From Geobacter metallireducens GS-15 (GTDB lineage Bacteria > Desulfobacterota > Desulfuromonadia > Geobacterales > Geobacteraceae): a DNA stretch of 13,762 nt. The translations under genes were made by a program, and so were the position numbers. The stretch lies in contig NC_007515.1 in the NCBI RefSeq assembly GCF_000012925.1, positions 1 to 13,762 on the forward strand, written 5' to 3'. The first letter of the stretch is position 1. Each line of letters starts with the position of its first letter. Below the pieces are notes generated by a model. The model was given only the letters and a program-made list of their open reading frames with translations, did not search any database and was not told the origin of the DNA. Below, piece after piece: positions 604 to 13,458 of this stretch.

Positions 604-619
604 CGGGGGGTTCCGGAAA

Positions 620-641
620 TTTTCCGTCACTTTTCTCACTG
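620..641. repeat. Degenerate fourth iteron copy (18/22 match)
   Basis: TTTTCCgTCacTTTTCTCACTg compared with the iteron TTTTCCTTCGATTTTCTCACTC. Confidence 0.45.
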
Positions 642-670
642 CTAGGGGGGTTGAAGGGGGTCGATCCTCT

Positions 671-695
671 CCCGAAAAGCGGGGGCGGTTGACCG
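671..695. repeat. Left copy of a 25-bp perfect inverted repeat (partner at 13434-13458)
   Basis: CCCGAAAAGCGGGGGCGGTTGACCG is the exact reverse complement of 13434-13458. Patchy similarity extends into the flanks. Confidence 0.9.
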
Positions 696-760
696 CTTCG
701 CGCTGTTCTCCCCTCCCTGAGAGGGAGGGGCCGGGGGGTGGGTGCTACTTACCCTGGAAG

Positions 761-769
761 TTTTCCACA
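761..769 (+). promoter_or_regulatory. DnaA-box-like 9-mer
   Basis: TTTTCCACA fits the relaxed DnaA box TTWTNCACA. It lies next to an AT-rich patch (about 781-830) and the iterons, the usual layout of iteron origins. Confidence 0.4.
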
Positions 770-866
770 AGTGGGGGTGTCTCTACTAAAAGGCTTTTAA
801 AAAAGCTATAGGCTTATACTATAGGGGAAGCTGTGAAGCCGCATGGTTCAAGGGTTTGATGGGTGG

Positions 867-964
867 TTTTCCTTCGATTTTCTCACTCGGCAACCTAAAT
901 TTTCCTTCGATTTTCTCACTCACGCCCGAAAAAGGAGATAAATTTTCCTTCGATTTTCTCACTC
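867..964. repeat. Three 22-bp direct repeats (iterons), the core of the candidate oriV
   Basis: TTTTCCTTCGATTTTCTCACTC is perfect at 867-888, 900-921 and 943-964. Copies 2 and 3 share an extended 30-mer. Start-to-start spacing is 33 and 43 bp. Copy 3 overlaps the rep stop codon (963-965). Confidence 0.8.
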
Positions 965-2063
965 ACGCCGCCACCCGTTTAACAGCCTTTTGCACATGGG
1001 TAGGGGATGGAAAAAGGGTTAGCTCCTTGGCATTGACGGAGAGCTTTGCATGGGGGTAAACGACCCTAACTTTTTTGAGGGCGTCTTTGAATTTTGTACG
1101 GAAGTTGTCTAGGTCGCTTGTCTCTGGGCCGAATTGGCTTTTAAGCTGCGGCCAGGATAACGGATAGGGTGCCGCCAAGTGGCACATACGCAACGTGAGC
1201 CACATATAAATGTCTAGGGCCATAGGTGATTGTTTCAGCGCCGCAAGCGCCCTAAGATCAATCGGGAAAGGCGCATTTAACGCCATGGCATAAAAATCTT
1301 CTCCCACCACAACAAACGATTCATCTAGGGTGAATTGATCCGGGTTCTTTGTATCCCACCACATAGCCGCCTTTGTGGCAACGTTGCACCGCTGGAATTG
1401 CCATGATTCTTTGCTGTTGTACTTCAGCTTGATGTCAGCAGAGAATAGCCGCTTTATCTGTTGTTCAACCTGTTTCCTGGTACGACTGTCCAGCCCTACA
1501 CCAATTGATCTTAAAAAATCGCTAAAACACTTGCCAAGAACAATCCGGCGGCTATTCGTCCGGACAATCTCAGTTACTAACCAACACGTTATCAAGCGGG
1601 GATAAGTACCATAAGGGATTCCATGATCTGGATCGGCTGTGATAATCAGGGAATATTTCCCACTGTCGCACCGATAATAAGGGGTTTTAGGGTCCCGGTG
1701 GGGAAAGGTGACTTGCACCAACGCTTTCGCTTGGTAGGCAATTTGACCGGCCGTTTTGGCCGGGACCTGCTCTATTTCAACCGCTTGTGTCAACAGCTTT
1801 TCGACCTTTTTAGTCAACAACGGTTTATCTTTTTTAGCTTTCTTAGTCAGTAATTTTTTAACTGCTATTTTTGCTTTCTCTTTGAAATCCTCTTCTGATA
1901 CTCCCCACAATCCATTGTTTTCAAAGTATGTCTGTAAAATATTCCCTATTGCCGCCATAGGGTCAATTGTCTTGCCGGTCTTCTCTTGCAAGTATTCAAT
2001 ATAAAGCTGTAGCTCTTCAAAGACGGCCTTGGGTATCTCTATTTCCATTTCAGTGAATAACAT
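963..2063 (-). CDS. repA: Plasmid replication initiator, RepA_C-type (plasmid-encoded RepA family)
   Basis: 366-aa ORF. The central segment GIPYGTYPRLITCWLVTEIVRT and the C-terminal half resemble the plasmid RepA family as I recall it. Iterons lie immediately 3'. The start is 3 nt after the upstream ORF stop. Confidence 0.8.
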   Translation of the reverse strand: MLFTEMEIEIPKAVFEELQLYIEYLQEKTGKTIDPMAAIGNILQTYFENNGLWGVSEEDFKEKAKIAVKKLLTKKAKKDKPLLTKKVEKLLTQAVEIEQVPAKTAGQIAYQAKALVQVTFPHRDPKTPYYRCDSGKYSLIITADPDHGIPYGTYPRLITCWLVTEIVRTNSRRIVLGKCFSDFLRSIGVGLDSRTRKQVEQQIKRLFSADIKLKYNSKESWQFQRCNVATKAAMWWDTKNPDQFTLDESFVVVGEDFYAMALNAPFPIDLRALAALKQSPMALDIYMWLTLRMCHLAAPYPLSWPQLKSQFGPETSDLDNFRTKFKDALKKVRVVYPHAKLSVNAKELTLFPSPTHVQKAVKRVAA

Positions 2064-2379: not shown

Positions 2380-3693
2380 CACTACTGTCCGGTTAATAGT
2401 TGAATAAGTTCAGTTGGTTGCGCTCAGGATAATCAGCATTTCGCTTGAGAGCCTCCGCAACCAGCGATGAAATGGGCTTTTTCTCGAACAAGTTGACCTC
2501 CAGAATCTGTAGAAAAGTGTAGAGCGAACACGGAACCCCCAACTTCTTTTTCGTGATCGCCACCAGCAGATAGATGCACAAGGCAACCCATATCTGGCTC
2601 TTCACGGCATTGACTGACGTTCCGATGAACGACTTGATCCGCAGGTGCTGTTTGATCCATTTGAAAAACAGCTCCACCTGCCAGCGCTGCTTGTAAATCG
2701 CAGCCACCGTCGCTGCCGGAATCTCGAAGTTGTTCGTGAGAAATACGAGTCGCTTGTTCCGTTCTTTGTCAACATAGCTGACCCGGCGCAGTTTCTCCGG
2801 ATACCCCTTTTTCGACTTCTGCGTCACCAGGGTGATAATCTGGTCTGCCCGTACACCTGATTCCTTGTCCTTCGGATGGGAATATAACCGCTGGCATTTC
2901 AGGTTGTCCTTTGCCCGAACTACGAAGAATGCTCCCTGCTTGTGGATGGAGTGGAGCCGGGCAAAATCGACATACCCTCTGTCCATCGTGTAAATGGCAT
3001 CCTTTGCAACCGGCAGATGGTCCAGCATCCTGACATCGTGGACCTTGCCAGTGGTAATAGTGACCCAGGTCGGAATGGGACCACGCAGATCAATGAGCGT
3101 ATGCATCTTGACCGCCGCCTTGGTTTTGCGGAACTCGGCCCATGGGAACAGCGTAAGGCACAGGTCGATAGTGGTCGAGTCAAAGGCGTAGAGCGGTTGC
3201 GTAAGCTCAACGGAGATGGCATCAGCCTGGTACAGCTGCTGAGCTATGCCGATCAGTACATGACCGAAGTCTTGGAAGATACGCCAGTCCCTGCGCTCGT
3301 TCGCGTCGGCAAGGGTCGTGCGGGAGACATCACCACGAAAGCCGATGTGGTACAGCTTCTCCTGGTGGGAGTTCAGGCAGGTCTCGATATCCCGCAAGCT
3401 CTCACGGCCAGCCATCTGGGCATAAGCCAGGCAGAGGAACTGGTCATAGGTCGAGAACTTCTTCTCCCGATACTCGCCACGGTGTCGGCGAACGCAGAGA
3501 TTGAATTCGTACCGGGGCAGAAACTGCAGAAGTTGTTTGAAAACGGTCGGACCGGTGTGCATTGCTCCCCTCCTGTAAAGGGAGGAAGGCTACACTCAGA
3601 ACGAATTCATGTCGAAAAAAGAACAATTGTGCCAAAGAGCAATAAAGTTCAACAAGTTACAGCTGTACAATCAAAGTTTACCGGACAGTAGTA
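2380..3693 (-). mobile_element. IS4-family insertion sequence (1314 bp)
   Basis: Terminal inverted repeats are CACTACTGTCCGGTTAA (left) and TACTACTGTCCGGTAAA (right end, reverse complement), 15/17 matching. There is a single transposase ORF and flanking 9-bp direct repeats. Confidence 0.85.
2393..3562 (-). CDS. IS4-family DDE transposase
   Basis: 389 aa. The C-terminal YKQRWQVELFFKWIK gives the Y-2-R-3-E-6-K signature of IS4-type transposases. DRGY and other DDE-region motifs are present. SD AGGAGGGG lies upstream. Confidence 0.9.
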   Translation of the reverse strand: MHTGPTVFKQLLQFLPRYEFNLCVRRHRGEYREKKFSTYDQFLCLAYAQMAGRESLRDIETCLNSHQEKLYHIGFRGDVSRTTLADANERRDWRIFQDFGHVLIGIAQQLYQADAISVELTQPLYAFDSTTIDLCLTLFPWAEFRKTKAAVKMHTLIDLRGPIPTWVTITTGKVHDVRMLDHLPVAKDAIYTMDRGYVDFARLHSIHKQGAFFVVRAKDNLKCQRLYSHPKDKESGVRADQIITLVTQKSKKGYPEKLRRVSYVDKERNKRLVFLTNNFEIPAATVAAIYKQRWQVELFFKWIKQHLRIKSFIGTSVNAVKSQIWVALCIYLLVAITKKKLGVPCSLYTFLQILEVNLFEKKPISSLVAEALKRNADYPERNQLNLFNY

Positions 3694-5320: not shown

Positions 5321-5809
5321 CTACTTCCGGCCGAAGAGACGGCCGAAAAATCCCCGCTTCGGTTCCTGGGGAGGATCGGGGACCGGTACAGGATCAGCCG
5401 GGGGAGGCTCGGAAGGGTGGGCTTTGTGTTCCAGGAGCCGGTGAGCGGTGGCAAGCTGTCCGGTCAATTCATCGACTTTCCCTTGTAGCCAGGTTTCCCG
5501 CTTGTCGGCGGCCTTGATGGCCTCGCGTAGTGCTTCAACTTCGGCCTGTAAAGCCGCGTTTTTTATGTCATTTTCCCGTGTCATATTTTGTAAAGCATGA
5601 ATGTCGCTTGACGGGTCGGGCGTTGACTGGCCTTTAGGGCCGGGCAAACGGCCGTTGAATACCCTCATCAGTTCGGCGGTGTCAATACACGGCTTTTCGT
5701 TTTCGTCTTTTTTCACCGTTAAAACGCCGGGTTTTATGTATTTGGTGTAAAGGTATTGACGACTTATCCCGGCAAGCCGGGCGGCCTCTGTAATCGTGAC
5801 ATTTGCCAT
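5321..5809 (-). CDS. HTH DNA-binding protein with coiled-coil and a proline-rich basic tail
   Basis: The preferred start is MANVTITEAARLAGISRQYLY.. (ATG at 5807-5809, SD AGGGGG), giving 162 aa. The N-terminal HTH is excisionase/MerR-like. The central segment is heptad-like and the tail reads PPPADPVPVPDPPQEPKRGFFGRLFGRK. Confidence 0.65.
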   Translation of the reverse strand: MANVTITEAARLAGISRQYLYTKYIKPGVLTVKKDENEKPCIDTAELMRVFNGRLPGPKGQSTPDPSSDIHALQNMTRENDIKNAALQAEVEALREAIKAADKRETWLQGKVDELTGQLATAHRLLEHKAHPSEPPPADPVPVPDPPQEPKRGFFGRLFGRK

Positions 5810-5884
5810 ATCAAGCCCCCTGTCATAACTTGTTAAGTGTTTACCATGAGGCTGTAAACCTAGCATTTGACAGGCAAAAAGGCA

Positions 5885-5919
5885 ACGGAAACGAGAAAGG
5901 GCCGGGGGTTTCCCGGCCC
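5885..5919 (-). terminator. Terminator-like hairpin ending the trbL-trbJ-lipoprotein transcript
   Basis: The minus strand reads GGGCCGGG-aaacc-CCCGGCCC followed by TTTCTCGTTTCCGTT, an interrupted T tract. It is homologous to the terminator at 4528-4552. Confidence 0.45.
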
Positions 5920-5968
5920 TTCTGGGGGTACTGCCAGCCCGGCAAAGCTCCGTTGCCGTGTCTACCCA

Positions 5969-6000
5969 GTTTCAATCCTCGCCCTTGTGGGGCGCTCCGG
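5969..6000 (-). CRISPR. Solitary CRISPR-repeat-like element (type I-C-like), single copy, no array
   Basis: The minus strand reads CCGGAGCGCCCCACAAGGGCGAGGATTGAAAC. The recalled I-C repeat is GTCGCGCCCCGCACGGGCGCGTGGATTGAAAC. Ungapped identity is 22/32, and the last 10 nt are identical. A 5-bp GC stem with a 5-nt loop ends exactly 11 nt from the 3' end, as in I-C repeats. Confidence 0.4.
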
Positions 6001-6010
6001 CCTGGGCCGG

Positions 6011-6196
6011 TTACTTCTTTCCTTTGTAGTAGTCCAGCATGTTTTTTTCCGGTCCCGCCTTCGGGAGTTCCCCTTTCTTGAGGGCCTTTGCCGGTTGGCC
6101 GTCCGCCGTGTAACCCTCGGGGGCCTTGTTGCACCCTGCAACCAACATCGCCCCCATAACAACTACAACCAGCCCCATAATAACTTGTTTTTTCAT
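6011..6196 (-). CDS. Small lipoprotein (61 aa), TrbK-like position, candidate entry-exclusion protein
   Basis: MKKQVIMGLVVVVMGAMLVAGC carries the lipobox LVAGC. SD AGGAGGG is present. Only the last 61 codons of the 176-aa track ORF are credible. Small lipoproteins next to trbJ are typically entry-exclusion factors such as RP4 TrbK. Confidence 0.7.
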   Translation of the reverse strand: MKKQVIMGLVVVVMGAMLVAGCNKAPEGYTADGQPAKALKKGELPKAGPEKNMLDYYKGKK

Positions 6197-6236
6197 AGCT
6201 TTTCCCTCCTTTGTGGTTGTGACCGATTCCGGCCGG

Positions 6237-6956
6237 TTATTTTTTCTTCCTGAGATAGTCGAGCATGTTTCTATCGTCCCCCTTTGGTAAGTCCCCTTTC
6301 TTGAGGGGCTTTGCCTTTTCGGCGGCCTGGGCGGCCATGTAGGACGATTGTTCACGGGCACTTGTTGCCATGATCTGCTGTAGCTGGATGAGTTGTTGCG
6401 CCACCATTGCCGAAATCTGGTTGCCCGCCTGGGCGGCGGCAAGCTGGCCGTCTGCGCTGTTGGAAGCGGCGACAAGGGCGTTGAGGGCGTCTTGATCGGT
6501 AGCGGCGTTGCTGATAAGGCCCTGGGCCAACATGGCGTCACGGACGGAGTTTTGAAGCTGCTGGTTTGCCTTGGCGGCCTGGGCGGCGTAGTCCTTCCCG
6601 CTCATGCCGTTGTAGGCGGCCATGTCCGGGTAATACTGGTCAAAAGCCCCCTCCGTGCGGCCGTAATCGTAAGTAATGCCCCTGGTCTTCTGCTGGATTT
6701 CGGCAAGCTGCCGAATGCCGTTCATGATCCGGCCGCGTATCTGGTCGCTGTTGAGTTGCCGGGCCTGTCGTATGGCAACTTCAAGTTGCTGGTATTGAGT
6801 GGCTAGTTGCTCGGCGGTGTTGATGGCCGTGGCTACCTGCTGCACGTAGCTAAACAGGTTCTGTGCCCAGTTGGTGTAATCGAGCACCGGGATTGTTGCA
6901 TGAGCCTGGGCGGACATGCTCAGGATCAGGACGGTGACAATAAGTGCTTTTTTCAT
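6237..6956 (-). CDS. trbJ: P-type conjugative transfer protein TrbJ (VirB5-like)
   Basis: The preferred start is MKKALIVTVLILSMSAQAHA (signal peptide, SD AGGAGG, ATG at 6954-6956), giving 239 aa. IPVLDYTNWAQNLFSYVQQ and the Q-rich helical body are TrbJ-like. Confidence 0.8.
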   Translation of the reverse strand: MKKALIVTVLILSMSAQAHATIPVLDYTNWAQNLFSYVQQVATAINTAEQLATQYQQLEVAIRQARQLNSDQIRGRIMNGIRQLAEIQQKTRGITYDYGRTEGAFDQYYPDMAAYNGMSGKDYAAQAAKANQQLQNSVRDAMLAQGLISNAATDQDALNALVAASNSADGQLAAAQAGNQISAMVAQQLIQLQQIMATSAREQSSYMAAQAAEKAKPLKKGDLPKGDDRNMLDYLRKKK

Positions 6957-6974
6957 GGTTTGTTCCTCCTTTGC

Positions 6975-7034
6975 CCCCCATATCTTGTATCCTGGTCGGC
7001 TGGATCGTCCGGGCCTCGGCACAAGATATGGGGG
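6975..7034 (-). repeat. 14-bp perfect inverted repeat (stem-loop) in the trbL-trbJ intergenic region
   Basis: CCCCCATATCTTGT (6975-6988) pairs with ACAAGATATGGGGG (7021-7034) around a 32-nt loop. In the mRNA the stem ends 4 nt upstream of the trbJ SD. No U tract follows it. Confidence 0.85.
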
Positions 7035-7042
7035 TTACGTTG

Positions 7043-8494
7043 TTAATCGACGTGGAGCCGGACCCCTGCCCCGCCTCCGGCGCTGGCGTCCTGGGGAACT
7101 GCTCTTTGGCTCTGCTGCCATGCGTCTTGTAGGCTGCTCCGGCGGGGTTGGCCCTTACCGTTCCCCCCTCCGCTTCCGACGTTGGACCCTTGCAAGCTGC
7201 TGGTGCCTCCGCCGGTCCCCGTGGTCGGCGCTGGTTCGGTCTTCCCGGCATCGGTTGCGGTGGTGTCTGCGCTGCCAGTCGCCGGGGGTGTGGCGTCTGT
7301 GGTTGTAGCGGTGGTGTCTGCTGCCGGTGCCGGTGTGGGGGTGGCCTCAGTCTTCCCGGTGTCTGCTGCTCCTTTGGCTGCTGCATCGGCGGCCGGTTTA
7401 AGGCTGCTGCCTCCCGATGCCGGTTTGATCCCTCCGGCGCTCCCGGCTTCGGCGGCTGAAATGGCCCCGCTCTTGGCGGCCTGGAACGCGGACGCTCCGG
7501 GCATTGCTCCTGCTGCGGCTCGGGCAACGTTGCCAAGGAAAGAGCCGTTCCCGGCTGCTGCTGCGGCCTTGGCTCCGGCGAGGCCTCCGGCTACTGCTGC
7601 CCCTCCGGTTGCCATACCAGCGGCGGCCATGGCTGGTGCTGCTGCCCCTGCGGCGGCACTCAAGGCGGTACCGGCGGCGGCTCCGGCGGACAGGGAAGGG
7701 GACCCGGAAAGGACGGCGGAAGCCACACCGGGGGCCTGGGCAACCACAAAGGCAATAACGGCCACCGTTACACCTAATGTCATCATTTGATTAAACGTTG
7801 GATCAGGCCCAAGAGCCGGGAGAGCCAAAAGGACCGGCTGGATCACCGCCACCACGAATGACAAAACCATTAACTTGATCCCGAAGGCGATTATTGCGCC
7901 GATGGCCTTTTCCGACAAAAACGCGGTGTGCTTACTGATTCCGAAGGGGAGAAGGATGATACCAAGGGTGGAAACGATGCCAAATTCGATGAAGGTAATC
8001 ATTATCTGACACGCCATGACGACATAAGCCAGAATCACAATTAGATAACAGCCGTAAGCCATGAGCCTGTCACCGATTGCAGTTATAGCCATGTGTTGTA
8101 TAGCGTCATAGATTGGATCAGCAGCCAGAAAGCCCGCCGAAATCAAGGACGAAGGGTTTTTCATGGAAAAGGATACCCCCGCCCCTCCGGCCTTCAAACC
8201 TACCGCAATAAAGCCGTCAAGGATGATTTCAGCGAGGCCGGAACGGGCGACCCCTTGAACCAGAAAAATGAAAAAACCGATGGTGAGGATCTTTTTAACC
8301 AATGGGGGGATTATGTTGTCTTCCCCCCCCTTCAGGGCATGAAATGCCCCCAAGAGGACCATTTCGATTACTGCCAGGGCTCCGGCAATATACATGGCCC
8401 ATGACAGCAAGGCCCCTTTGCCGGTCCCAAAAACGGAGTTAAAGGTTTCAAGTACCTGGGTGAGAATTTGAACATCTGGGGTTGCGGTTGCCAT
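7043..8494 (-). CDS. trbL: P-type conjugative transfer protein TrbL (VirB6-like)
   Basis: The preferred start is MATATPDVQ (ATG at 8492-8494, SD AGGAG), giving 483 aa. It is a polytopic membrane protein with a long Ala/Gly/Thr/Pro-rich C-terminal tail, as is typical of TrbL. Confidence 0.8.
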   Translation of the reverse strand: MATATPDVQILTQVLETFNSVFGTGKGALLSWAMYIAGALAVIEMVLLGAFHALKGGEDNIIPPLVKKILTIGFFIFLVQGVARSGLAEIILDGFIAVGLKAGGAGVSFSMKNPSSLISAGFLAADPIYDAIQHMAITAIGDRLMAYGCYLIVILAYVVMACQIMITFIEFGIVSTLGIILLPFGISKHTAFLSEKAIGAIIAFGIKLMVLSFVVAVIQPVLLALPALGPDPTFNQMMTLGVTVAVIAFVVAQAPGVASAVLSGSPSLSAGAAAGTALSAAAGAAAPAMAAAGMATGGAAVAGGLAGAKAAAAAGNGSFLGNVARAAAGAMPGASAFQAAKSGAISAAEAGSAGGIKPASGGSSLKPAADAAAKGAADTGKTEATPTPAPAADTTATTTDATPPATGSADTTATDAGKTEPAPTTGTGGGTSSLQGSNVGSGGGNGKGQPRRSSLQDAWQQSQRAVPQDASAGGGAGVRLHVD

Positions 8495-8571
8495 GGTGAC
8501 TCCTTTCTTTTCGGCAGAGTGCCTTATTTGGCTATACCGAAAATGCACGAAAAACCCAAATTACAGCCTGT

Positions 8572-10803
8572 TTAGCGGTCCATGCCCTTCCCACGGTCAA
8601 TATCCTTTTGCACCCGGTTAATCTGCTGCTGAATGTCTTTGACGATCTGGCGTCGGTCCCGTGGATCGGTGCCGGGTTCCAGCTTATAGGCCCGGTCTTT
8701 CTTCGGGTCGGCGGCAAGGGTCTTTTCGATCTTCTTCAGGTCTGCCCGGTAGGCCCTGGCCTCTCTGGTTTCCTGGTCAACCGCGTTGATTTTGGCCTCT
8801 TCCGCCTGTACCTGCTTTTGCACTTCAGGCCGTTCCAGGTAGCTATGGAGCCGGGCCGTGTTGACTTCGTTTGTGGCGAGTCGTGCGGTAAGCTCTTCTC
8901 TATTAATGGTTGATACTTTGCCACCGGCCATGTCGGTTGCGAGTTTCAGGGCTTCGGCGTCCAGGTCTGTCCGCTCTTTCTTGATTGCCTCGGAAATGCC
9001 TTTAGTGGCGGTCTGCTCTGCTACCCTTCGGGCGTCGGTTTTGCCGTCGATCTGGCCTTTTTCGGCAAGCCATTTTTCGCCCTGGTCGATCTTGGCCGTA
9101 ATGATCTTGATTTCATCCCGGATTTCCGGGAGGAGCTCCCGGCCCTTGATCTGCTGGCCGATGCCCTGAGCCTTCTTCAGTTCGGCAATGTAGGGCTGTA
9201 GCTCTTTATTCGTTATCTCGATGCCAAGTTTCACGGCTTCGGCTGCTGCGAGGCGCTTCCAGGCCGTCGAGCCGGTAAGCTCAAAGGATCGGCCGAATTT
9301 CTCTTGACTCAGGAGGAGCCCCGCCTTGATCGCGGCCGGGTCGTTCTTCGAGTGGCCCAAAAAGAGGAGTTGACGGCCGGTGTCCCGGTAGGCTTCGGCC
9401 CCGCTCTTGTCCAGGAAAGAGACGTTGCCGTGTCTCGATACCTTGATTTCAAGGTCTTTCAGGGTAGTAAGCGGGGTTTTCTTTGCGGCCTCTTCTTCTC
9501 CTGTGGTGCCGGGCTCCGGGGCTTCAACTTCCAGGCGGTTCTTTTTCTGCCGTAGCATGTAGATAGCCGCTTCGTTGCCCTTGTTGGCCCGTTCGACAAG
9601 GTACTTGTCCCACCCCTTCTTAGCCTCGCCAAATTCGCCAAGGGCGGCCCGTTTCTCTGCGGCCCTGTCTTCTATCTCGGCTTTGCGCCGGGCGGCTCCA
9701 AGGTTGATTGCGGCCCTCTGGGCTCGTTTCTCGATGCCCGGAAGGTCCGATTCCTTCAGGGCCTTTACCTGCTCTTTCTTCCATTCGATAATCTCTTTTC
9801 TTCCGGCCGTGAGTTCGGCGGTTATGGCCTTGCGCTCCTCGGCGTGGTGCTTCCATTCCTCCTGATAATCCTTAAATTCCCGGTAAAGCTGCTTTTGCTC
9901 GGGCTCCACTGCAATCATCTTTTCCGTGTCGCTTTTGTAGTCGATCACGGGGGCAAGGTCTTTGACTCTGGCGGTCGGTTCCTGGTACGGGCCTAATGCT
10001 TTTTCCAGCCGTCCGCGTGATAGTTGCCGGGCGATTTCTGACGCCTTCGCGTGGTACTGATCCGGGTCGTTTCGGTCTACGATCACAAGGCCCTGATTCT
10101 TAGGATCAGGCCGGATATCCAGGTTATATTTTGCTGCTGCCCGGTGTAGATCGTCCCACGATCCGTCGGCGAGAGCGGCGGTTAAATCCTTCCCGGCCCG
10201 TTCCTTGGCCCACGTCTTAAAGCTCTTCTCCCCGGTTTCAATTTCCCGCCTTCTATTGCCCTGGTCCAGGGAAAACGGGCGGTCTGGATCATGGGACTTT
10301 TTGACGATTTCCCCCTTGTCATTAATCATATAGCTGCCGTTGTCACGCTCGAAACCATGTTGTAATTCCATCTCCCGGCAAGCCTTGTCGAGCTTCATTC
10401 GGTCCTTGTCGATGGGCCGGACATGACCCGTCCGGTAGTCAATCCGGTTGATACAAATGTGCAAATGATAGTTATCAGTGTCACGGTGGAAACCGGCCAC
10501 GGCCTGTAAATCTTCCATGCCTAATGCCTTTAAGGCATGGTCAAAACATGCCTCTATTTCTTCTCTGGTCGGCTTCTCTCCCTCCCGCCACGAAAACCCG
10601 AAATGATAGGCGGCATGGGCGCTCTTCCCGGTCGATTCGACAAACTCCATTTCTTCAATGGCGGTGTTAATGTCGTCAACATTCCGGGTCAATTCGTATT
10701 CGACTTTTTCGTGTGGCTCAAAGTCTTTCCCAAGGCCACGAATGTATTTGATCGTAGCGGAAAAGCTACGACCGCCGGGGGCGTCCCATACTCTGCTAAT
10801 CAT
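8572..10803 (-). CDS. Conjugative relaxase (relaxase/mobilisation nuclease domain, RP4 TraI / MOBP-like)
   Basis: The preferred start is MISRVWD (ATG at 10801-10803, overlapping the mobC stop), giving 743 aa. Tyr20 lies in ATIKYIRG. The histidine triad motif is HRDTDNYHLHICINRI (RP4 TraI has HTDTDNLHIHIAINKI). The middle is a long coiled-coil, and the C-terminal segment resembles relaxase-associated domains. Confidence 0.9.
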   Translation of the reverse strand: MISRVWDAPGGRSFSATIKYIRGLGKDFEPHEKVEYELTRNVDDINTAIEEMEFVESTGKSAHAAYHFGFSWREGEKPTREEIEACFDHALKALGMEDLQAVAGFHRDTDNYHLHICINRIDYRTGHVRPIDKDRMKLDKACREMELQHGFERDNGSYMINDKGEIVKKSHDPDRPFSLDQGNRRREIETGEKSFKTWAKERAGKDLTAALADGSWDDLHRAAAKYNLDIRPDPKNQGLVIVDRNDPDQYHAKASEIARQLSRGRLEKALGPYQEPTARVKDLAPVIDYKSDTEKMIAVEPEQKQLYREFKDYQEEWKHHAEERKAITAELTAGRKEIIEWKKEQVKALKESDLPGIEKRAQRAAINLGAARRKAEIEDRAAEKRAALGEFGEAKKGWDKYLVERANKGNEAAIYMLRQKKNRLEVEAPEPGTTGEEEAAKKTPLTTLKDLEIKVSRHGNVSFLDKSGAEAYRDTGRQLLFLGHSKNDPAAIKAGLLLSQEKFGRSFELTGSTAWKRLAAAEAVKLGIEITNKELQPYIAELKKAQGIGQQIKGRELLPEIRDEIKIITAKIDQGEKWLAEKGQIDGKTDARRVAEQTATKGISEAIKKERTDLDAEALKLATDMAGGKVSTINREELTARLATNEVNTARLHSYLERPEVQKQVQAEEAKINAVDQETREARAYRADLKKIEKTLAADPKKDRAYKLEPGTDPRDRRQIVKDIQQQINRVQKDIDRGKGMDR

Positions 10804-11176
10804 CTTCGGCCCCCTCTTCTGCGGCAAATTGCCGCTGAATTGCCACGGCTGCCCGGCGGATTTCGTCCAGGGCAATATCAATATTCCCTAGGTTTTTTTG
10901 GGCCTCCTCGGGGGTGATTTCCTTACGGGTCATGAGGTATTTTTGCAAGCCGCCGAAGCGGCGAAGCTCACCCACTGCCCGGCGTAGATCGGCTACGGCG
11001 GCAATGGTCGTCTTGCTCGGCGTAGCCCGTCCATCGAGACAACGGCGGGCGAGTTCTCCGACAGATACCCCGGAGGCCGTGGCCTTGGCTGTGTAGCGGG
11101 AAAGGTCCTCGGCGGTAACTCTGATATGGATCATTTCACTTTTATTCCGGCGTTCGCTTCCTGACTTAGCTTTCAT
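10796..11176 (-). CDS. mobC: MobC/TraJ-like relaxosome accessory protein (RHH)
   Basis: 126 aa. IHIRVTAEDLSRYTAKATASGVSVGELARRCL is the usual MobC-type RHH segment. It lies directly upstream of and overlaps the relaxase gene. SD AGGAG is present. Confidence 0.7.
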   Translation of the reverse strand: MKAKSGSERRNKSEMIHIRVTAEDLSRYTAKATASGVSVGELARRCLDGRATPSKTTIAAVADLRRAVGELRRFGGLQKYLMTRKEITPEEAQKNLGNIDIALDEIRRAAVAIQRQFAAEEGAEDD

Positions 11177-11382: not shown

Positions 11383-11627
11383 TATAAATGCCGACGCGAG
11401 GCGGAAACCCTTATTTCTTCGTTTACCCGCCGGGCTGGGTGTCATGGTGTGATATCATATATACAGTTTCAAGCCCTTAACAGTTGCGGTTTCACAGATT
11501 GCTATATGCAACATGATGTCACTTTGTAAGACAAAATGACGCCATGTTTTATGGCCGTTTTTATGCCGACACGGCACAGATAGTGCAAATATTCAATGTA
11601 AGACACGATAACAACAGGGGGTGCAAC

Positions 11628-12224
11628 ATGGGAAATGACAAAAATACAGCTAAAACGCTGAAAATCAGTAAGTCAAAAAGCGGACAGAGTGACGAAAAAC
11701 CGACATATTCAGTTGACAAAATGCGTCAATGGTTGAATGACAACGCAAGTGACACAACGCCGGATAAAACGCCTACAATTTGGGATAGACTCATAGAAAT
11801 CAAAGACGATATTGCAGCCGTCTACCCTTCCAAGATGAGCGCCGATAAAGTGGTGAAGGGGCTTAAAGACAATGGTCTTGATATTACAAAGACAACGTTC
11901 CTGACGTACTGGCAATTAATCAAGGCGGGGCATACTACACGGCCATCGACCAGCAAGAAAAAACAGCCGGTTTCTGAGCCTGAAAATTCCGGAAAAAATG
12001 AATCTGGTTTTGATGAAAACCCGGCTCCGGTTTCTGAGGAAAAAACGGGCGAGGATTTGAAAAATTCTGAAGGGGAAAAAGAAACCTACCCTTGCCCTAA
12101 GTGCAAACGTATTTTGACAGTTATGAGAGAGACAAAACCCGGCGTTCATCTGGGGCAAAAATACATTAGTTGCGATGCCGACACCGGGGGGTGTGGGTAT
12201 TTCTCATATGACGACGGGAAATAA
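11628..12224 (+). CDS. Hypothetical protein with a C-terminal topoisomerase-type C4 zinc ribbon (orfA)
   Basis: The preferred start is MGNDKNTAK (ATG at 11628, SD GGGGG), giving 198 aa. The C-terminus CPKC-x22-CDADTGGC resembles the Topo I/III C4 zinc finger. The middle is low-complexity and acidic. An HTH-like segment SADKVVKGLKDNGLDITKTTFLTYW is present. Confidence 0.65.
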   Translation: MGNDKNTAKTLKISKSKSGQSDEKPTYSVDKMRQWLNDNASDTTPDKTPTIWDRLIEIKDDIAAVYPSKMSADKVVKGLKDNGLDITKTTFLTYWQLIKAGHTTRPSTSKKKQPVSEPENSGKNESGFDENPAPVSEEKTGEDLKNSEGEKETYPCPKCKRILTVMRETKPGVHLGQKYISCDADTGGCGYFSYDDGK

Positions 12225-12303
12225 AAAACCCCTGCCATAAATGACAGGGGCCATGAATCAAGGCGGGCGCTCTTTGGACGGAAAACCCGCCTCAATCTCA
12301 CAG
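12223..12303 (-). ncRNA. Candidate small RNA encoded by module copy 1 (hypothetical)
   Basis: The minus strand reads TGGTATAAA (extended -10-like, 12308-12316). The transcript would then be CCACUGUGAG.., a stem-loop, and a canonical terminator hairpin plus U6. The 5' end is a guess. Confidence 0.25.
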
Positions 12304-12334
12304 TGGTTTTATACCACGGGAAGGATGGAAAAAA
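12223..12334. repeat. Structured intergenic module, copy 1
   Basis: A6, then hairpin CCCCTGCCATaAATGACAGGGG (12229-12250). A second hairpin GGCGGG..CCCGCC spans 12262-12291. The conserved box is CTCACAGTGG-ttt-TATACCAC (12297-12317), followed by a purine-rich SD. It is homologous to 12966-13084. Confidence 0.85.
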
Positions 12335-12967
12335 ATGAAAAAAGAGTCTCCAAAACATGAACTGAAGTCGTTAAAGGATCTTCTCGACTTTGTGAGAGAC
12401 TACCCGGAATTTATGGATGAAATCACGACAGCCATGCCAAAAGCAACCGCGTTGCCCGGCAGCAATCAATCAGACTTCATACAACCGATAATGCCCCACA
12501 TTGTCAGGTTGAAAATTTGGGGAATGTCAGACAACTCTATACGTCAGCTTATTGATTTTGAAGGGCCATTTTATTTTGATCCTCGCGGCTTCGGCAAAGT
12601 GCTTCATACAGCAATAAAAAAATATGCGCGTTCTGTTCGTTATGAAATTGCCGAAGAAGTAGGAAAAATAATTCGTGAATCCGGCGGTGACGACGGCCAT
12701 TTAACAGAGACGTACATGGATGAAGCTATCCATCTTTTCGACAAGTGGCGTTTCCCAGAAGATCAAGGCTATGAAAATGTCACTGATTACGAATTCGGCG
12801 AGGCTATTCTTTGGGCCATGCGGGGTTTTGATCCATCTCTTTATTTCCGTCGTGTGACTGCTCAAGTCCTGGGCCGGAAGATGGTAAAGCGGCTCAAGCT
12901 CCTTTATGAAATTGACTTTGACAGTAACGAGACTCATCCGGCCGAACCCGCCCACAAGGCGGCATAA
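12335..12967 (+). CDS. Hypothetical 210-aa protein (orfB)
   Basis: Clean ORF with SD GGAAGGA. No family recognised. Confidence 0.7.
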   Translation: MKKESPKHELKSLKDLLDFVRDYPEFMDEITTAMPKATALPGSNQSDFIQPIMPHIVRLKIWGMSDNSIRQLIDFEGPFYFDPRGFGKVLHTAIKKYARSVRYEIAEEVGKIIRESGGDDGHLTETYMDEAIHLFDKWRFPEDQGYENVTDYEFGEAILWAMRGFDPSLYFRRVTAQVLGRKMVKRLKLLYEIDFDSNETHPAEPAHKAA

Positions 12968-13052
12968 AAAAACCCCTGCCATGAATGACAGGGGCCGTGG
13001 ATCGCGGCGGGGTGCCCTCGGTGAAACACCGTCCCCGCCTTAACTCTCACAG
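12966..13052 (-). ncRNA. Candidate small RNA encoded by module copy 2 (hypothetical)
   Basis: Same architecture as copy 1 on the minus strand: TGGTATAGC, stem-loop, terminator hairpin plus U7. The 5' end is a guess. Confidence 0.2.
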
Positions 13053-13084
13053 TGGAGCTATACCACAGAAAGGAAGGAAAAACC
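12966..13084. repeat. Structured intergenic module, copy 2
   Basis: A7, then hairpin CCCCTGCCATgAATGACAGGGG (12973-12994). A second hairpin GGCGGGG..CCCCGCC spans 13006-13039. The box is CTCACAGTGG-agc-TATACCAC (13046-13066), followed by an SD. Confidence 0.85.
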
Positions 13085-13433: not shown

Positions 13434-13458
13434 CGGTCAACCGCCCCCGCTTTTCGGG
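13434..13458. repeat. Right copy of the 25-bp perfect inverted repeat (partner at 671-695)
   Basis: CGGTCAACCGCCCCCGCTTTTCGGG is the exact reverse complement of 671-695. Confidence 0.9.

What the first reader, a model, noticed from the sequence alone, without database searches (positions are those of the whole stretch)
5900..6010. Solitary type I-C-like CRISPR repeat in the 3' UTR of a plasmid transfer operon (RNA anti-CRISPR or Cas-hijacking candidate)
Ten nt after the lipoprotein stop, the minus strand (the same sense as the surrounding genes) reads CCGGAGCGCCCCACAAGGGCGAGGATTGAAAC (6000 down to 5969). I recall the canonical I-C repeat as GTCGCGCCCCGCACGGGCGCGTGGATTGAAAC. Against it, ungapped identity is 22/32 and the terminal 10 nt GGATTGAAAC are identical. 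A GC stem (CGCCC/GGGCG) with a 5-nt loop ends exactly 11 nt before the 3' end. That is the geometry at which Cas5d cuts I-C repeats, leaving the ..ATTGAAAC handle. The window holds one copy, no array and no cas genes. The element would be transcribed with trbJ and the lipoprotein gene and is followed by about 47 nt and a terminator. Solitary repeat units on phages and plasmids have been reported as RNA anti-CRISPRs that sequester Cas proteins. Mini-arrays on mobile elements have been reported as weapons against competing elements. Either role would suit a conjugative plasmid entering I-C-bearing hosts.
Basis: partly seen in the sequence, partly recalled or inferred. Interest (0 to 1): 0.8.

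Follow-up and report, generated by a model that had tools for sequence, protein, structure and literature searches.

The report
Lone CRISPR repeat on Geobacter plasmid
The small plasmid pMET1 of Geobacter metallireducens carries a single shortened copy of its own host's CRISPR repeat just after its transfer genes. It most likely makes a decoy RNA that ties up the host's CRISPR proteins, a known trick of mobile DNA seen here in a natural, testable plasmid-host pair.

Summary
The window is the complete plasmid pMET1 (13,762 bp) of Geobacter metallireducens GS-15.

**The element.** Minus strand 5997-5969 reads GAGCGCCC-CACAA-GGGCG-AGGATTGAAAC. It starts 13 nt after the stop codon of the last mobilisation-operon gene and ends 47 nt before a terminator hairpin. 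It is the only significant Rfam hit in the window (CRISPR-DR9, E 2e-5, below the gathering score).

**Match to CRISPR.** Arrays of this repeat family sit next to type I-C cas operons. The host's only CRISPR array has the repeat GTAGCGCCCGCCTACATAGGCGGGCGAGGATTGAAAC. The plasmid copy keeps the 5' flank, the lowest 5 stem pairs and all 16 3' bases. It replaces the upper stem and loop with 5 nt. The stem base and 3' tail that it keeps are the parts Cas5c is reported to need.

**Supporting evidence.** A related plasmid contig has its own solitary copy at a different site, directly after a stop codon, with a different loop.

**Against a guide role.** No target was found for the downstream tail, and the apparent second repeat is mostly ancestral terminator.

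**Verdict.** The best reading is a type I-C solitary repeat unit acting as an RNA anti-CRISPR decoy. Its function is untested. It is a new member of a known kind.

The parts
6237..11176 (-). Mobilisation operon upstream of the element: nikA (10796-11176), relaxase (8572-10881), trbL (7043-8548), trbJ (6237-6956).
   Evidence: Pfam NikA-like, Relaxase/TraI_middle/LPD7 and TrbL. TrbJ is named by NCBI for the identical protein P0001. PMC2700814 predicts Gmet_A3575-A3574-A3573-A3572-A3643 as one transcription unit.
6011..6196 (-). Last gene of the operon (Gmet_A3643): a 61-aa lipoprotein with a signal peptide and Cys. Its C-terminal 25 aa duplicate the TrbJ C-terminus.
   Evidence: Sequence. Direct repeat D2, 6055-6104 vs 6278-6327, 78%. 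No homologue in TrbJ relatives apart from the TrbJ tail.
5997..6010 (-). Small hairpin CCGGC-CCAG-GCCGG, directly after the stop codon and abutting the repeat.
   Evidence: RNA fold.
5969..5997 (-). Solitary type I-C-type CRISPR repeat unit: GAGCGCCC CACAA GGGCG AGGATTGAAAC. The 5' arm is 5994-5990, the loop 5989-5985, the 3' arm 5984-5980 and the 11-nt handle 5979-5969. The predicted Cas5c cut lies between G5980 and A5979.
   Evidence: Rfam RF01322, 36.7 bits, E 2.3e-5. Compared with the host repeat, the 5' part (GTAGCGCCC) matches 8/9 and the 3' part 16/16. Compared with Geobacter-type repeats that start GAGCGCCC, the match is 8/8 + 16/16. Folds. Cas5c cleavage rule from PMC8524198.
5922..5968 (-). 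47-nt tail, pMET1-specific: TGGGTAGACACGGCAACGGAGCTTTGCCGGGCTGG (a 35-nt 'pseudo-spacer') followed by CAGTACCCCCAG (a possible stump of a second repeat).
   Evidence: Backbone homology with relatives starts only at about 5923-5921. No protospacer was found. AGTACCCC matches AGCGCCCC at 6/8 (read from the sequence).
5884..5921 (-). Terminator-like hairpin AAGGGCCGGG-AAACC-CCCGGCCCTT (5921-5897) with a T-rich tail (5896-5884). It belongs to the ancestral backbone.
   Evidence: Fold. Conserved in L276 (91%), L277 and L278, where it follows the relaxase gene directly. Not listed by the simple terminator scan.
5321..5809 (-). Next gene, Gmet_A3571 (162 aa, N-terminal HTH), with its own palindromic promoter region. 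Not part of the element.
   Evidence: ORF. Faint HTH_17 hit. Conserved in backbone relatives.

Best explanation
The element is a solitary repeat unit derived from a type I-C CRISPR repeat of the Geobacter kind. It is carried by plasmid pMET1 and probably works as an RNA anti-CRISPR (Racr-type decoy).

The proposed mechanism has four steps:

1. The element is transcribed as the 3' UTR of the nikA-relaxase-trbL-trbJ-lipoprotein mRNA.
2. The short hairpin plus the authentic 11-nt AGGAUUGAAAC tail is recognised by the host or recipient Cas5c, which probably cuts after G5980.
3. This leaves an RNA of roughly 85-95 nt with a genuine crRNA 5' handle, a non-guide body and the terminator hairpin.
4. 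Cas5c, Cas7 and Cas8c assemble on this RNA, or stay bound to the uncut hairpin. They are therefore withdrawn from real crRNAs, which lowers interference and primed spacer acquisition against the plasmid.

What is shown: the sequence and structural identity with I-C repeats, the match to the host array, the sense orientation and 3' UTR position, and an independent second copy in a related plasmid.

What is inferred: transcription, Cas5c binding and cleavage, and any effect on immunity.
For: 1. **Host.** The window is pMET1 of G. metallireducens GS-15. The length is 13,762 bp and the proteins are those of strain RCH3.
2. **Match to the host array.** The host's sole array, CRISPR3, has the repeat GTAGCGCCCGCCTACATAGGCGGGCGAGGATTGAAAC. 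The plasmid copy is identical in 8/9 5' bases and 16/16 3' bases. It matches the repeats of Geobacter MAGs at 8/8 + 16/16.
3. **Significance.** It is the only significant Rfam hit in the window, E 2.3e-5. Chance expectation is 7e-6 or less.
4. **Subtype.** Arrays of this family flank I-C cas operons in Nitrosospira, Moorella, Nitrospirales and Geobacteraceae.
5. **What is kept.** The stem base and the whole 11-nt 3' tail are retained, while the upper stem and loop are replaced. Cas5c is reported to recognise the cut site, stem base and 3' overhang, not the loop or the 5' overhang, and to leave an 11-nt handle (PMC8524198). The hairpin ends exactly 11 nt from the 3' end.
6. **Position.** The element is in the same sense as the operon, starts 13 nt after its last stop codon, lies upstream of a terminator, and has no promoter of its own predicted. 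The validated type I-C RacrIC1 lies 11 nt after acrIC5 and is co-transcribed with it (PMC10651486).
7. **Second copy.** Backbone relative L276 (A3571 88% identical) carries its own solitary copy, CAGCGCCCCTTAATCGGGGCGAGGATTGAAAC. It sits at another site, directly after the stop codon of another operon's last gene and in sense to it. It has the same conserved parts and a different loop, and it is the only CRISPR-DR hit in 56 kb of relatives.
8. **Published precedent.** SRUs on phages and plasmids usually match the host subtype (PMC10651486).
Against: - There are no expression, processing or binding data.
- The stem has only 5 bp (-9 kcal/mol), against 9 bp in the host repeat and 7 bp in the canonical I-C repeat. 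It may be too weak for Cas5c.
- The Rfam score is below the gathering threshold (36.7 vs 45).
- The host array is tiny (12 spacers), and none of the spacers targets pMET1.
- The host cas locus has two IS elements between cas7 and cas4 (PMC2700814 supplement), so the system may be weak or inactive.
- I could not retrieve the host cas genes to confirm the subtype.
- All 10 other contigs that carry the element are 99.97-100% identical to pMET1, so there is no evolutionary test of constraint at this site.
- Relatives lack the element at this position.
- No acr gene is evident nearby.
Confidence: 0.5

Rival explanations
1. The element encodes a crRNA-like guide, as in a one-repeat mini-array or a Cracr/crlRNA. 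After Cas5c cleavage, the 11-nt handle plus the 35-47-nt tail would program the host's I-C Cascade. The target could be a competing plasmid or phage. With partial complementarity it could instead be a host promoter such as that of the cas operon, which would be silenced.
For: The geometry resembles a crRNA: an authentic handle, a 35-nt body (host spacers are 33-41 nt), then a hairpin. After exactly 35 nt the sequence reads cAGTACCCC, 6/8 identical to the repeat's 5' end AGCGCCCC. A 17-nt stretch resembles the element itself (14/17, shuffle P about 0.013). Cracr RNAs, including type I-C ones and 16 on plasmids, have been described (bioRxiv 10.1101/2024.10.29.618823). Viral mini-arrays that target relatives are established (PMC11656645).
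Against: No protospacer was found in PLSDB or phage records (best E 0.4-4), in IMG/VR (exact 20- and 21-mers), in 1.6 Mb of fetched loci including related plasmids, or in pMET1 itself (best 23/35). A seed-plus-PAM search gave only chance-level hits. Most of the 'second repeat' similarity is the ancestral terminator, which is present in relatives without any repeat. The L276 copy is followed directly by backbone sequence, with no spacer.
Confidence: 0.15
2. The element is a neutral relic. A fragment of a Geobacter I-C array (repeat, spacer, stump of the next repeat) was captured during the rearrangement that inserted trbL-trbJ-lipoprotein into the plasmid backbone. It has since decayed, including an internal deletion of the hairpin top, and has no function.
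For: The element lies inside a lineage-specific mosaic block next to a chimeric gene. The plasmid carries an IS element. The hairpin is truncated. There is a possible stump of a second repeat after 35 nt. The element is absent from relatives at this site.
Against: The decay would have spared exactly the parts needed for Cas5c recognition, with 24 of 24 flanking bases identical to Geobacter repeats, while removing only the dispensable top and keeping a closed hairpin. A second, independent solitary copy with a different but still closed hairpin sits in a related plasmid, again in sense and right after a stop codon.
Confidence: 0.25
3. The element works at the DNA level. It could provide a homology patch for recombination of the plasmid with host CRISPR arrays, or a stray integration site for Cas1-Cas2.
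For: This idea was raised for viral solitary repeats in the literature cited by PMC10651486. The L276 copy is bounded by an 8/9 direct repeat, CAGCGCCCC / CAGCGGCCC.
Against: Only 8 + 16 nt of interrupted identity is available, which is too short for efficient homologous recombination (general knowledge). There is no leader-like sequence. None of the contigs carrying the plasmid shows array growth or an integrated form.
Confidence: 0.04
4. The resemblance is chance: an ordinary 3' UTR hairpin followed by a purine-rich stretch.
For: In very large metagenome scans, some isolated matches to the pattern look like a hairpin followed by a Shine-Dalgarno sequence (GAGGA) in front of housekeeping genes, for example L164, L172 and L188. 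The motif alone is therefore not proof in a huge database.
Against: Within a 13.8-kb plasmid the expectation is 7e-6 for the 16-mer alone and 2e-9 with the 5' flank. The match is to the repeat of this plasmid's own host. No start codon follows the element.
Confidence: 0.01

Closest known systems
RacrIC1, the type I-C RNA anti-CRISPR of a Bifidobacterium pseudocatenulatum prophage (Camara-Wilpert et al. 2023, PMC10651486)
   Same: A solitary I-C repeat mimic on a mobile element. It lies about 11 nt downstream of a protein gene and is co-transcribed with it. It matches the subtype of the host system.
   Different: RacrIC1 follows an acrIC5 gene and is phage-borne. It was shown to restore phage infection in a heterologous I-C test strain (PAO1 carrying a I-C system). 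The pMET1 unit follows a lipoprotein gene at the end of a mobilisation operon and is plasmid-borne. Its hairpin is cut down to 5 bp, and it is untested.
Solitary repeat units (SRUs) found by SRUFinder in viruses and in 90 PLSDB plasmids (PMC10651486)
   Same: An intergenic single repeat with no neighbouring repeats or cas genes, on an MGE whose host has the matching array.
   Different: Rows read in the SRUFinder output show about 90% or higher identity and coverage to a known repeat. This unit has a 7-8-nt internal deletion relative to 37-nt repeats and might be missed. Neither pMET1 nor this repeat is found in the PLSDB copy searched here. Geobacter does not appear in the paper's held supplements.
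Type I-C CRISPR repeats of the 37-nt 'GTAGCGCCC...GGGCGAGGATTGAAAC' family (Rfam RF01322, CRISPR-DR9)
   Same: The 5' flank, the lowest 5 stem pairs and the entire 11-nt 3' handle are identical. The hairpin ends 11 nt from the 3' end.
   Different: The element is single, not in an array. It is 29-30 nt rather than 37. The upper 4 stem pairs and the tetraloop are replaced by a pentaloop. It scores below the family's gathering threshold.
Cracr / crlRNAs (CreA/CreR mimics) of phages and plasmids (bioRxiv 10.1101/2024.10.29.618823), and viral CRISPR mini-arrays (PMC11656645)
   Same: A repeat-derived handle followed by a short body, which could load Cas proteins.
   Different: Those RNAs have a demonstrable target: at least 9 PAM-proximal nt against a host cas or creT promoter, or a full protospacer in a related virus. 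They usually also have a second, degenerate repeat. No target was found here, and the 'second repeat' is mostly backbone terminator.

Membership tests
Type I-C CRISPR repeat, Rfam RF01322 (CRISPR-DR9) | Sequence-and-structure score reaching the family's gathering threshold (45 bits) | tested here: not met
   36.7 bits, E 2.3e-5. The shortfall comes from the loop region, 5 nt instead of 12.
Type I-C CRISPR repeat, Rfam RF01322 (CRISPR-DR9) | Hairpin followed by the 11-nt 3' tail AGGAUUGAAAC, which becomes the crRNA 5' handle after Cas5c cleavage | tested here: met
   The 16 3' nt are identical to the family consensus and to the host repeat. The stem ends 11 nt from the 3' end.
Type I-C CRISPR repeat, Rfam RF01322 (CRISPR-DR9) | Occurs as an array of repeats separated by spacers, next to cas genes | tested here: not met
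   One copy in the window. No cas domains in the plasmid ORFs scanned.
Type I-C CRISPR repeat, Rfam RF01322 (CRISPR-DR9) | The family is associated with type I-C cas operons | tested here: met
   NCBIfam finds Cas3, Cas5c, Cas8c, Cas7/Csd2, Cas4 and Cas1c beside such arrays in L045, L026 and L062. Cas8c lies beside the Geobacteraceae array L099.
Solitary repeat unit / RNA anti-CRISPR (Racr) candidate | A single repeat-like unit in an intergenic region of a mobile element, with no further repeats nearby | tested here: met
   The plasmid is pMET1. The unit lies between Gmet_A3643 and Gmet_A3571. No second copy exists. The putative second repeat is mostly ancestral terminator.
Solitary repeat unit / RNA anti-CRISPR (Racr) candidate | The host carries a CRISPR-Cas system whose repeat the unit mimics | tested here: met
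   The host CRISPR3 repeat is taken from PMC2700814. The type I-C subtype of the host cas genes is inferred from the repeat family and from the cas7...cas4 annotations. It was not verified.
Solitary repeat unit / RNA anti-CRISPR (Racr) candidate | High identity and coverage to a known repeat (rows of the SRUFinder output that were read show roughly 90% or more) | tested here: inconclusive
   24-25 of about 25 flanking positions are identical, but there is a 7-8-nt internal deletion. SRUFinder itself was not run.
Solitary repeat unit / RNA anti-CRISPR (Racr) candidate | Transcribed, either from its own promoter or by co-transcription | not testable with these tools
   The unit is in sense, lies 13 nt after the operon's last stop codon and precedes the terminator. 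No own promoter is predicted. No RNA data are available.
Solitary repeat unit / RNA anti-CRISPR (Racr) candidate | Binds Cas proteins and inhibits interference or adaptation | not testable with these tools
   Needs experiments.
CRISPR mini-array / crRNA-like regulatory RNA (Cracr) | A second (often degenerate) repeat after one spacer | tested here: inconclusive
   A 14/17 similarity lies 35 nt downstream. Most of it is the terminator shared with repeat-less relatives. Only an 8-nt stump (6/8) is plasmid-specific.
CRISPR mini-array / crRNA-like regulatory RNA (Cracr) | The spacer matches a related MGE, or has at least 9 PAM-proximal nt against a host cas or toxin promoter | tested here: not met
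   No match in plasmids, phages, IMG/VR, the fetched relatives or pMET1 itself. The host chromosome could not be searched.

The most novel reading that the evidence does not exclude
The 3' UTR of the plasmid's mobilisation mRNA is cut by the host's Cas5c into a crRNA-like guide. Its 35-47-nt body would reprogram the host's type I-C Cascade to bind, and so silence, a host locus such as the cas operon, or to attack a competing Geobacter element. Related plasmids would move such minimal-hairpin repeat cassettes between the 3' ends of different operons.
Probability: 0.12. Interest if true: 0.7.

Novelty: new member of a known kind. Interest (0 to 1): 0.5.

Why it matters
Solitary repeats as RNA anti-CRISPRs were demonstrated mainly with phage-derived units, and in part in heterologous test strains. 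Plasmid examples are few (90 in PLSDB) and showed no clear association with acr genes.

This case is a native pair: a small, fully sequenced plasmid and its cultivable, genetically tractable host. The host's only CRISPR array uses the mimicked repeat.

The unit keeps only the hairpin base and the handle. If it is active, it would define the minimal Cas5c-binding decoy for type I-C.

Its position in the transfer-operon mRNA, and a sister copy at the end of the divergent operon of a related plasmid, suggest that expression of the decoy is tied to plasmid transfer and establishment.

It also shows that searches demanding near-full repeat coverage will miss hairpin-shortened mimics.

Tried and rejected
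- **Public plasmid and phage records.** I looked for the plasmid or the region in PLSDB and INPHARED. There was no match, so no annotation was available.
- **Conservation via exact-protein look-ups.** The 10 contigs with the lipoprotein are all 99.97-100% identical to pMET1 and therefore uninformative.
- **TrbJ relatives.** Relatives at 79-89% aa identity have a different gene order and no repeat.
- **Genome and metagenome pattern scans.** The isolated metagenome copies are a mixture of array ends, possible SRUs (L142 phage, L207, L218, L258, which have a terminator after 25-55 nt) and likely chance hairpin-plus-SD sites. I did not build on them.
- **Host cas locus.** Three routes failed: homologues of a Geobacteraceae Cas8c, the plasmid's IS transposase, and the candidate P0096, which turned out to belong to a different organism with the canonical 32-nt repeat.
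- **Self-targeting.** None of the 12 host spacers matches pMET1.
- **Pseudo-spacer targets.** None was found. The 13-nt match in the relaxase gene (D12) has no PAM and is not at the seed. It is at chance level.
- **Second-repeat idea.** It looked promising and was then largely explained by the ancestral terminator.
- **A second near-match in the window.** GGGCGAGGATT at 12047-12057 lies inside an ORF and has no hairpin, so it is chance.
- **Prior reports.** The held supplements of the Racr paper do not list Geobacter or this sequence.
Full report
**What the window is.** The ORFs encode NikA, a MobA/VirD2-type relaxase, TrbL, a TrbJ-like protein and a 61-aa lipoprotein. These are followed by a 162-aa HTH protein, an RHH/ParE toxin-antitoxin pair, a ParC-like partition gene, an IS4-family transposase and a RepA_C replication protein. 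The TrbJ-like and 162-aa proteins are identical to proteins that NCBI names from Geobacter metallireducens RCH3. The longest contig carrying them is 13,762 bp. Aklujkar et al. 2009 (PMC2700814) describe plasmid pMET1 of G. metallireducens GS-15 as 13,762 bp with exactly this organisation. They predict Gmet_A3575-A3574-A3573-A3572-A3643 as one 'mobilisation' transcription unit. The window is therefore the complete pMET1. It is absent from the PLSDB and phage collections searched here.

**The observation.** The minus strand 6000->5969 reads CCGGAGCGCCCCACAAGGGCGAGGATTGAAAC, as reported. The lipoprotein stop codon (TAA, 6013-6011) is followed by a small hairpin at 6010-5997. Next comes the repeat-like unit GAGCGCCC-CACAA-GGGCG-AGGATTGAAAC at 5997-5969, then a 47-nt tail at 5968-5922. 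A GC-rich hairpin with a T-rich tail lies at 5921-5884. The whole 146-nt stretch folds better than shuffles (z -2.8). The stem ends exactly 11 nt before the 3' end of the unit. The simple scan predicts no promoter in 5500-6500. It also did not list the hairpin as a terminator.

**Is it more than chance?** A scan of the whole window against all 4,227 Rfam families gives one significant hit. It is RF01322 (CRISPR-DR9) at 5998-5969 on the minus strand, 36.7 bits, E 2.3e-5. The 5' GnAGCGCCC and the 3' GGGCGAGGAUUGAAAC equal the consensus, and only the loop region is short, 5 nt against 12. The score is below the curated threshold of 45 bits for that reason. The exact 16-mer is expected 7e-6 times in the window, and the 8-mer + gap + 16-mer 2e-9 times. 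Shuffles give 0.24 hits even when three mismatches are allowed.

Almost all are arrays of a 37-nt repeat, GTAGCGCCC-(12 nt)-GGGCGAGGATTGAAAC. They occur in Nitrospira, Nitrosomonas/Nitrosospira, Gallionella, Rhodocyclales, Dehalococcoidia, Moorella thermoacetica and several Geobacter/Geobacteraceae genomes. The genes beside these arrays are Cas3, Cas5c, Cas8c/Csd1, Cas7/Csd2, Cas4 and Cas1c by NCBIfam. A Geobacteraceae locus (L099) has Cas8c next to such an array. The family is therefore a long-hairpin variety of type I-C repeat, and 'I-C-like' is right.

**The host connection.** PMC2700814 states that G. metallireducens has a single CRISPR locus, CRISPR3. It has 13 repeats with consensus GTAGCGCCCGCCTACATAGGCGGGCGAGGATTGAAAC and 12 spacers of 33-41 bp. 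The plasmid unit matches the 5' part at 8/9 and the 3' part at 16/16. The inner GCCTACATAGGC is replaced by CACAA. Repeats of Geobacter MAGs (L038, L099, L114) begin GAGCGCCC, so against them the flanks match at 8/8 and 16/16. The same paper's supplement lists cas genes near Gmet_1067 (a Cas7-type protein) and Gmet_1070 (Cas4), with two IS elements between them. I could not fetch the host locus to verify its subtype or integrity. None of the 12 host spacers matches pMET1 (best 24/40).

[quoted passage not shown] Recognition depends on the cut site, the stem base and the 3' overhang. It does not depend on the pentaloop or the 5' overhang. The pMET1 unit keeps a closed 5-bp stem base and the entire handle, and discards only the top of the hairpin. 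Its stem is weaker, at -9 kcal/mol. The host repeat folds at -19.6 and the canonical I-C repeat at -14.3.

**Comparative evidence at this site.** Ten other contigs with the lipoprotein gene, from G. metallireducens RCH3 and from sequencing runs, are 99.97-100% identical to pMET1. All carry the unit, so they add nothing. Relatives found through TrbJ (79-89% aa) have a different gene order, no lipoprotein homologue and no repeat. Relatives found through the downstream gene A3571 share the pMET1 backbone. In L276 (88% aa), L277 and L278 the relaxase gene is followed directly by the same terminator hairpin and A3571 promoter. Nucleotide homology to pMET1 starts at window 5923-5921. Hence trbL-trbJ-lipoprotein, the repeat unit and the 47-nt tail form a pMET1-specific block inserted into an older backbone, while the terminator is ancestral.

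**An independent second copy.** L276 has its own solitary repeat of the same family, CAGCGCCCCTTAATCGGGGCGAGGATTGAAAC (L276 6096->6065, minus strand). It lies immediately after the stop codon of a 119-aa gene that corresponds to a gene of pMET1's divergent operon. It is in sense to that gene. At the equivalent place pMET1 has an unrelated 84-nt terminator segment. It is the only CRISPR-DR hit in 56 kb of related plasmid contigs (RF01322, 29.4 bits, E 0.013). The two copies share AGCGCCC...GGGCGAGGATTGAAAC but have different, still-closing hairpin tops: 5 bp with CACAA against 6 bp with UUAAUC. Two related plasmids thus carry such a unit at different sites, both in a 3' UTR and in sense. This is the best available argument for function rather than debris. 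It is also why I rank the decoy reading above the relic reading.

**Guide or decoy?** The 35 nt after the unit have spacer length, and a 17-nt stretch after them resembles the unit (14/17, P about 0.013). Most of that similarity, AGAAGGGCCGGGA, is the ancestral terminator found in relatives that have no repeat. Only cAGTACCCC (6/8 to AGCGCCCC) is plasmid-specific and could be the stump of a second repeat. I found no protospacer in plasmids or phages (E at least 0.4) or in IMG/VR. There was none in 1.6 Mb of fetched loci including the relatives, nor in pMET1 itself. A seed search gave chance-level hits. The L276 copy has no spacer at all. A guide role (mini-array, PMC11656645; or Cracr, bioRxiv 10.1101/2024.10.29.618823) is therefore less likely. 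It is not excluded, because the host chromosome could not be searched.

**Comparison with what is known.** Solitary repeat units on viruses and plasmids act as RNA anti-CRISPRs (PMC10651486). RacrIF1 sequesters Cas6f and Cas7f. I-C, I-E, I-F and V-A candidates inhibited immunity. 83% of SRUs match the host subtype. 90 SRUs were found on PLSDB plasmids. RacrIC1 lies 11 nt after acrIC5 and is co-transcribed with it. The pMET1 unit fits this class in position, sense and host match. It differs in three ways: the hairpin is shortened, it sits at the end of a mobilisation operon rather than an acr locus, and it is untested. Neither Geobacter nor this sequence appears in that paper's held supplements. 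The repeat has no match in the PLSDB or phage collections used here. I therefore found no prior report of this instance.

**Other isolated copies.** One IMG/VR phage contig (L142) has a solitary copy just downstream of a promoter-like sequence (my reading of the sequence printed, not a scan). Several metagenome contigs (L207, L218, L258) have short-hairpin copies followed after 25-55 nt by strong terminators. Others look like a hairpin plus a Shine-Dalgarno sequence in front of housekeeping genes and may be chance in so large a database. I use these only as context.

**Verdict.** The element is a solitary type I-C repeat mimic of the plasmid's own host, and most likely an RNA anti-CRISPR decoy (confidence about 0.5). 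The alternatives are a neutral relic (0.25) and a crRNA-like guide (0.15). It is a new member of a known kind, of moderate interest because it offers a native and tractable plasmid-host pair and a minimal hairpin.

Noticed in passing
window 6011-6196 (-) and 6237-6327 (-): The 61-aa lipoprotein gene looks chimeric. Its last 25 codons (6055-6104) duplicate the 3' end of trbJ (6278-6327, 78% nt identity). TrbJ relatives have no such gene.
   Followed up: partly
window 5922-8548 vs L276 2684-2811 and L277 3997-4137: Relative to backbone relatives, trbL-trbJ-lipoprotein-repeat-tail is an insertion between the relaxase gene and the terminator/A3571 promoter. pMET1's relaxase is also longer (769 aa vs 575-580 aa).
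   Followed up: partly
L276 6065-6096 (-): A related plasmid contig has its own solitary I-C-type repeat, directly after the stop codon of a gene of the divergent operon. The unit starts CAGCGCCCC and is followed at once by backbone CAGCGGCCC (an 8/9 direct repeat). This may be microhomology at the insertion point.
   Followed up: partly
window 11544-12224 (+): Gmet_A3576 ends in a zinc ribbon with a faint Pfam hit to the restriction-alleviation protein Lar (E 0.004, below cut-off). The divergent operon might be a leading-region anti-defence module. In L276 the solitary repeat sits at the end of that operon.
   Followed up: no
window 12047-12057 (+): An exact 11-mer GGGCGAGGATT (part of the repeat's 3' half) lies inside the ORF 11544-12224, with no hairpin before it. 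Judged a chance match.
   Followed up: yes
window 5939-5963 and 9411-9435: The tail after the repeat shares 20/25 nt (13 exact) with a stretch of the relaxase gene. There is no TTC PAM and the match is not at the seed, so it is at chance level. The same tail segment (GGCAACGG) can also pair with CCGTTGCC just past the terminator in the MFE fold.
   Followed up: partly
window 616-969; 671-695 / 13434-13458; 2381-3692: Replication-origin iterons (four 31-nt copies). A perfect 25-nt inverted repeat joins the two ends of the window. An IS4-family element (DDE_Tnp_1 + DUF4372 transposase) is bounded by 16-nt inverted repeats.
   Followed up: no
window 12223-12333 vs 12967-13082 (+): Two intergenic modules of the divergent operon (a hairpin with an A-run, then an RBS region) are duplicated at 84-89% identity (D3 and D5).
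   Followed up: no
L142 5537-5566 (+), IMG/VR contig IMGVR_UViG_2831813989_000001: A phage contig (tail baseplate hub gene nearby) carries a solitary copy of the same repeat family, CGCCCGGTCGGGCCGGGCGAGGATTGAAAC. It lies just downstream of a promoter-like TTGACG...CATCAT (my reading of the sequence, not a scan) and is followed by a short tandem of other repeats.
   Followed up: partly
L278 1117-1135 (+) / L279 1845-1863 (+): About 30 nt after the A3571 homologue of another backbone relative lies GAGGGGGAAGGATTGAAAAG (13/16 to the repeat's 3' half). It has no preceding hairpin and is followed by a strong terminator. It may be a degenerate remnant or chance.
   Followed up: partly
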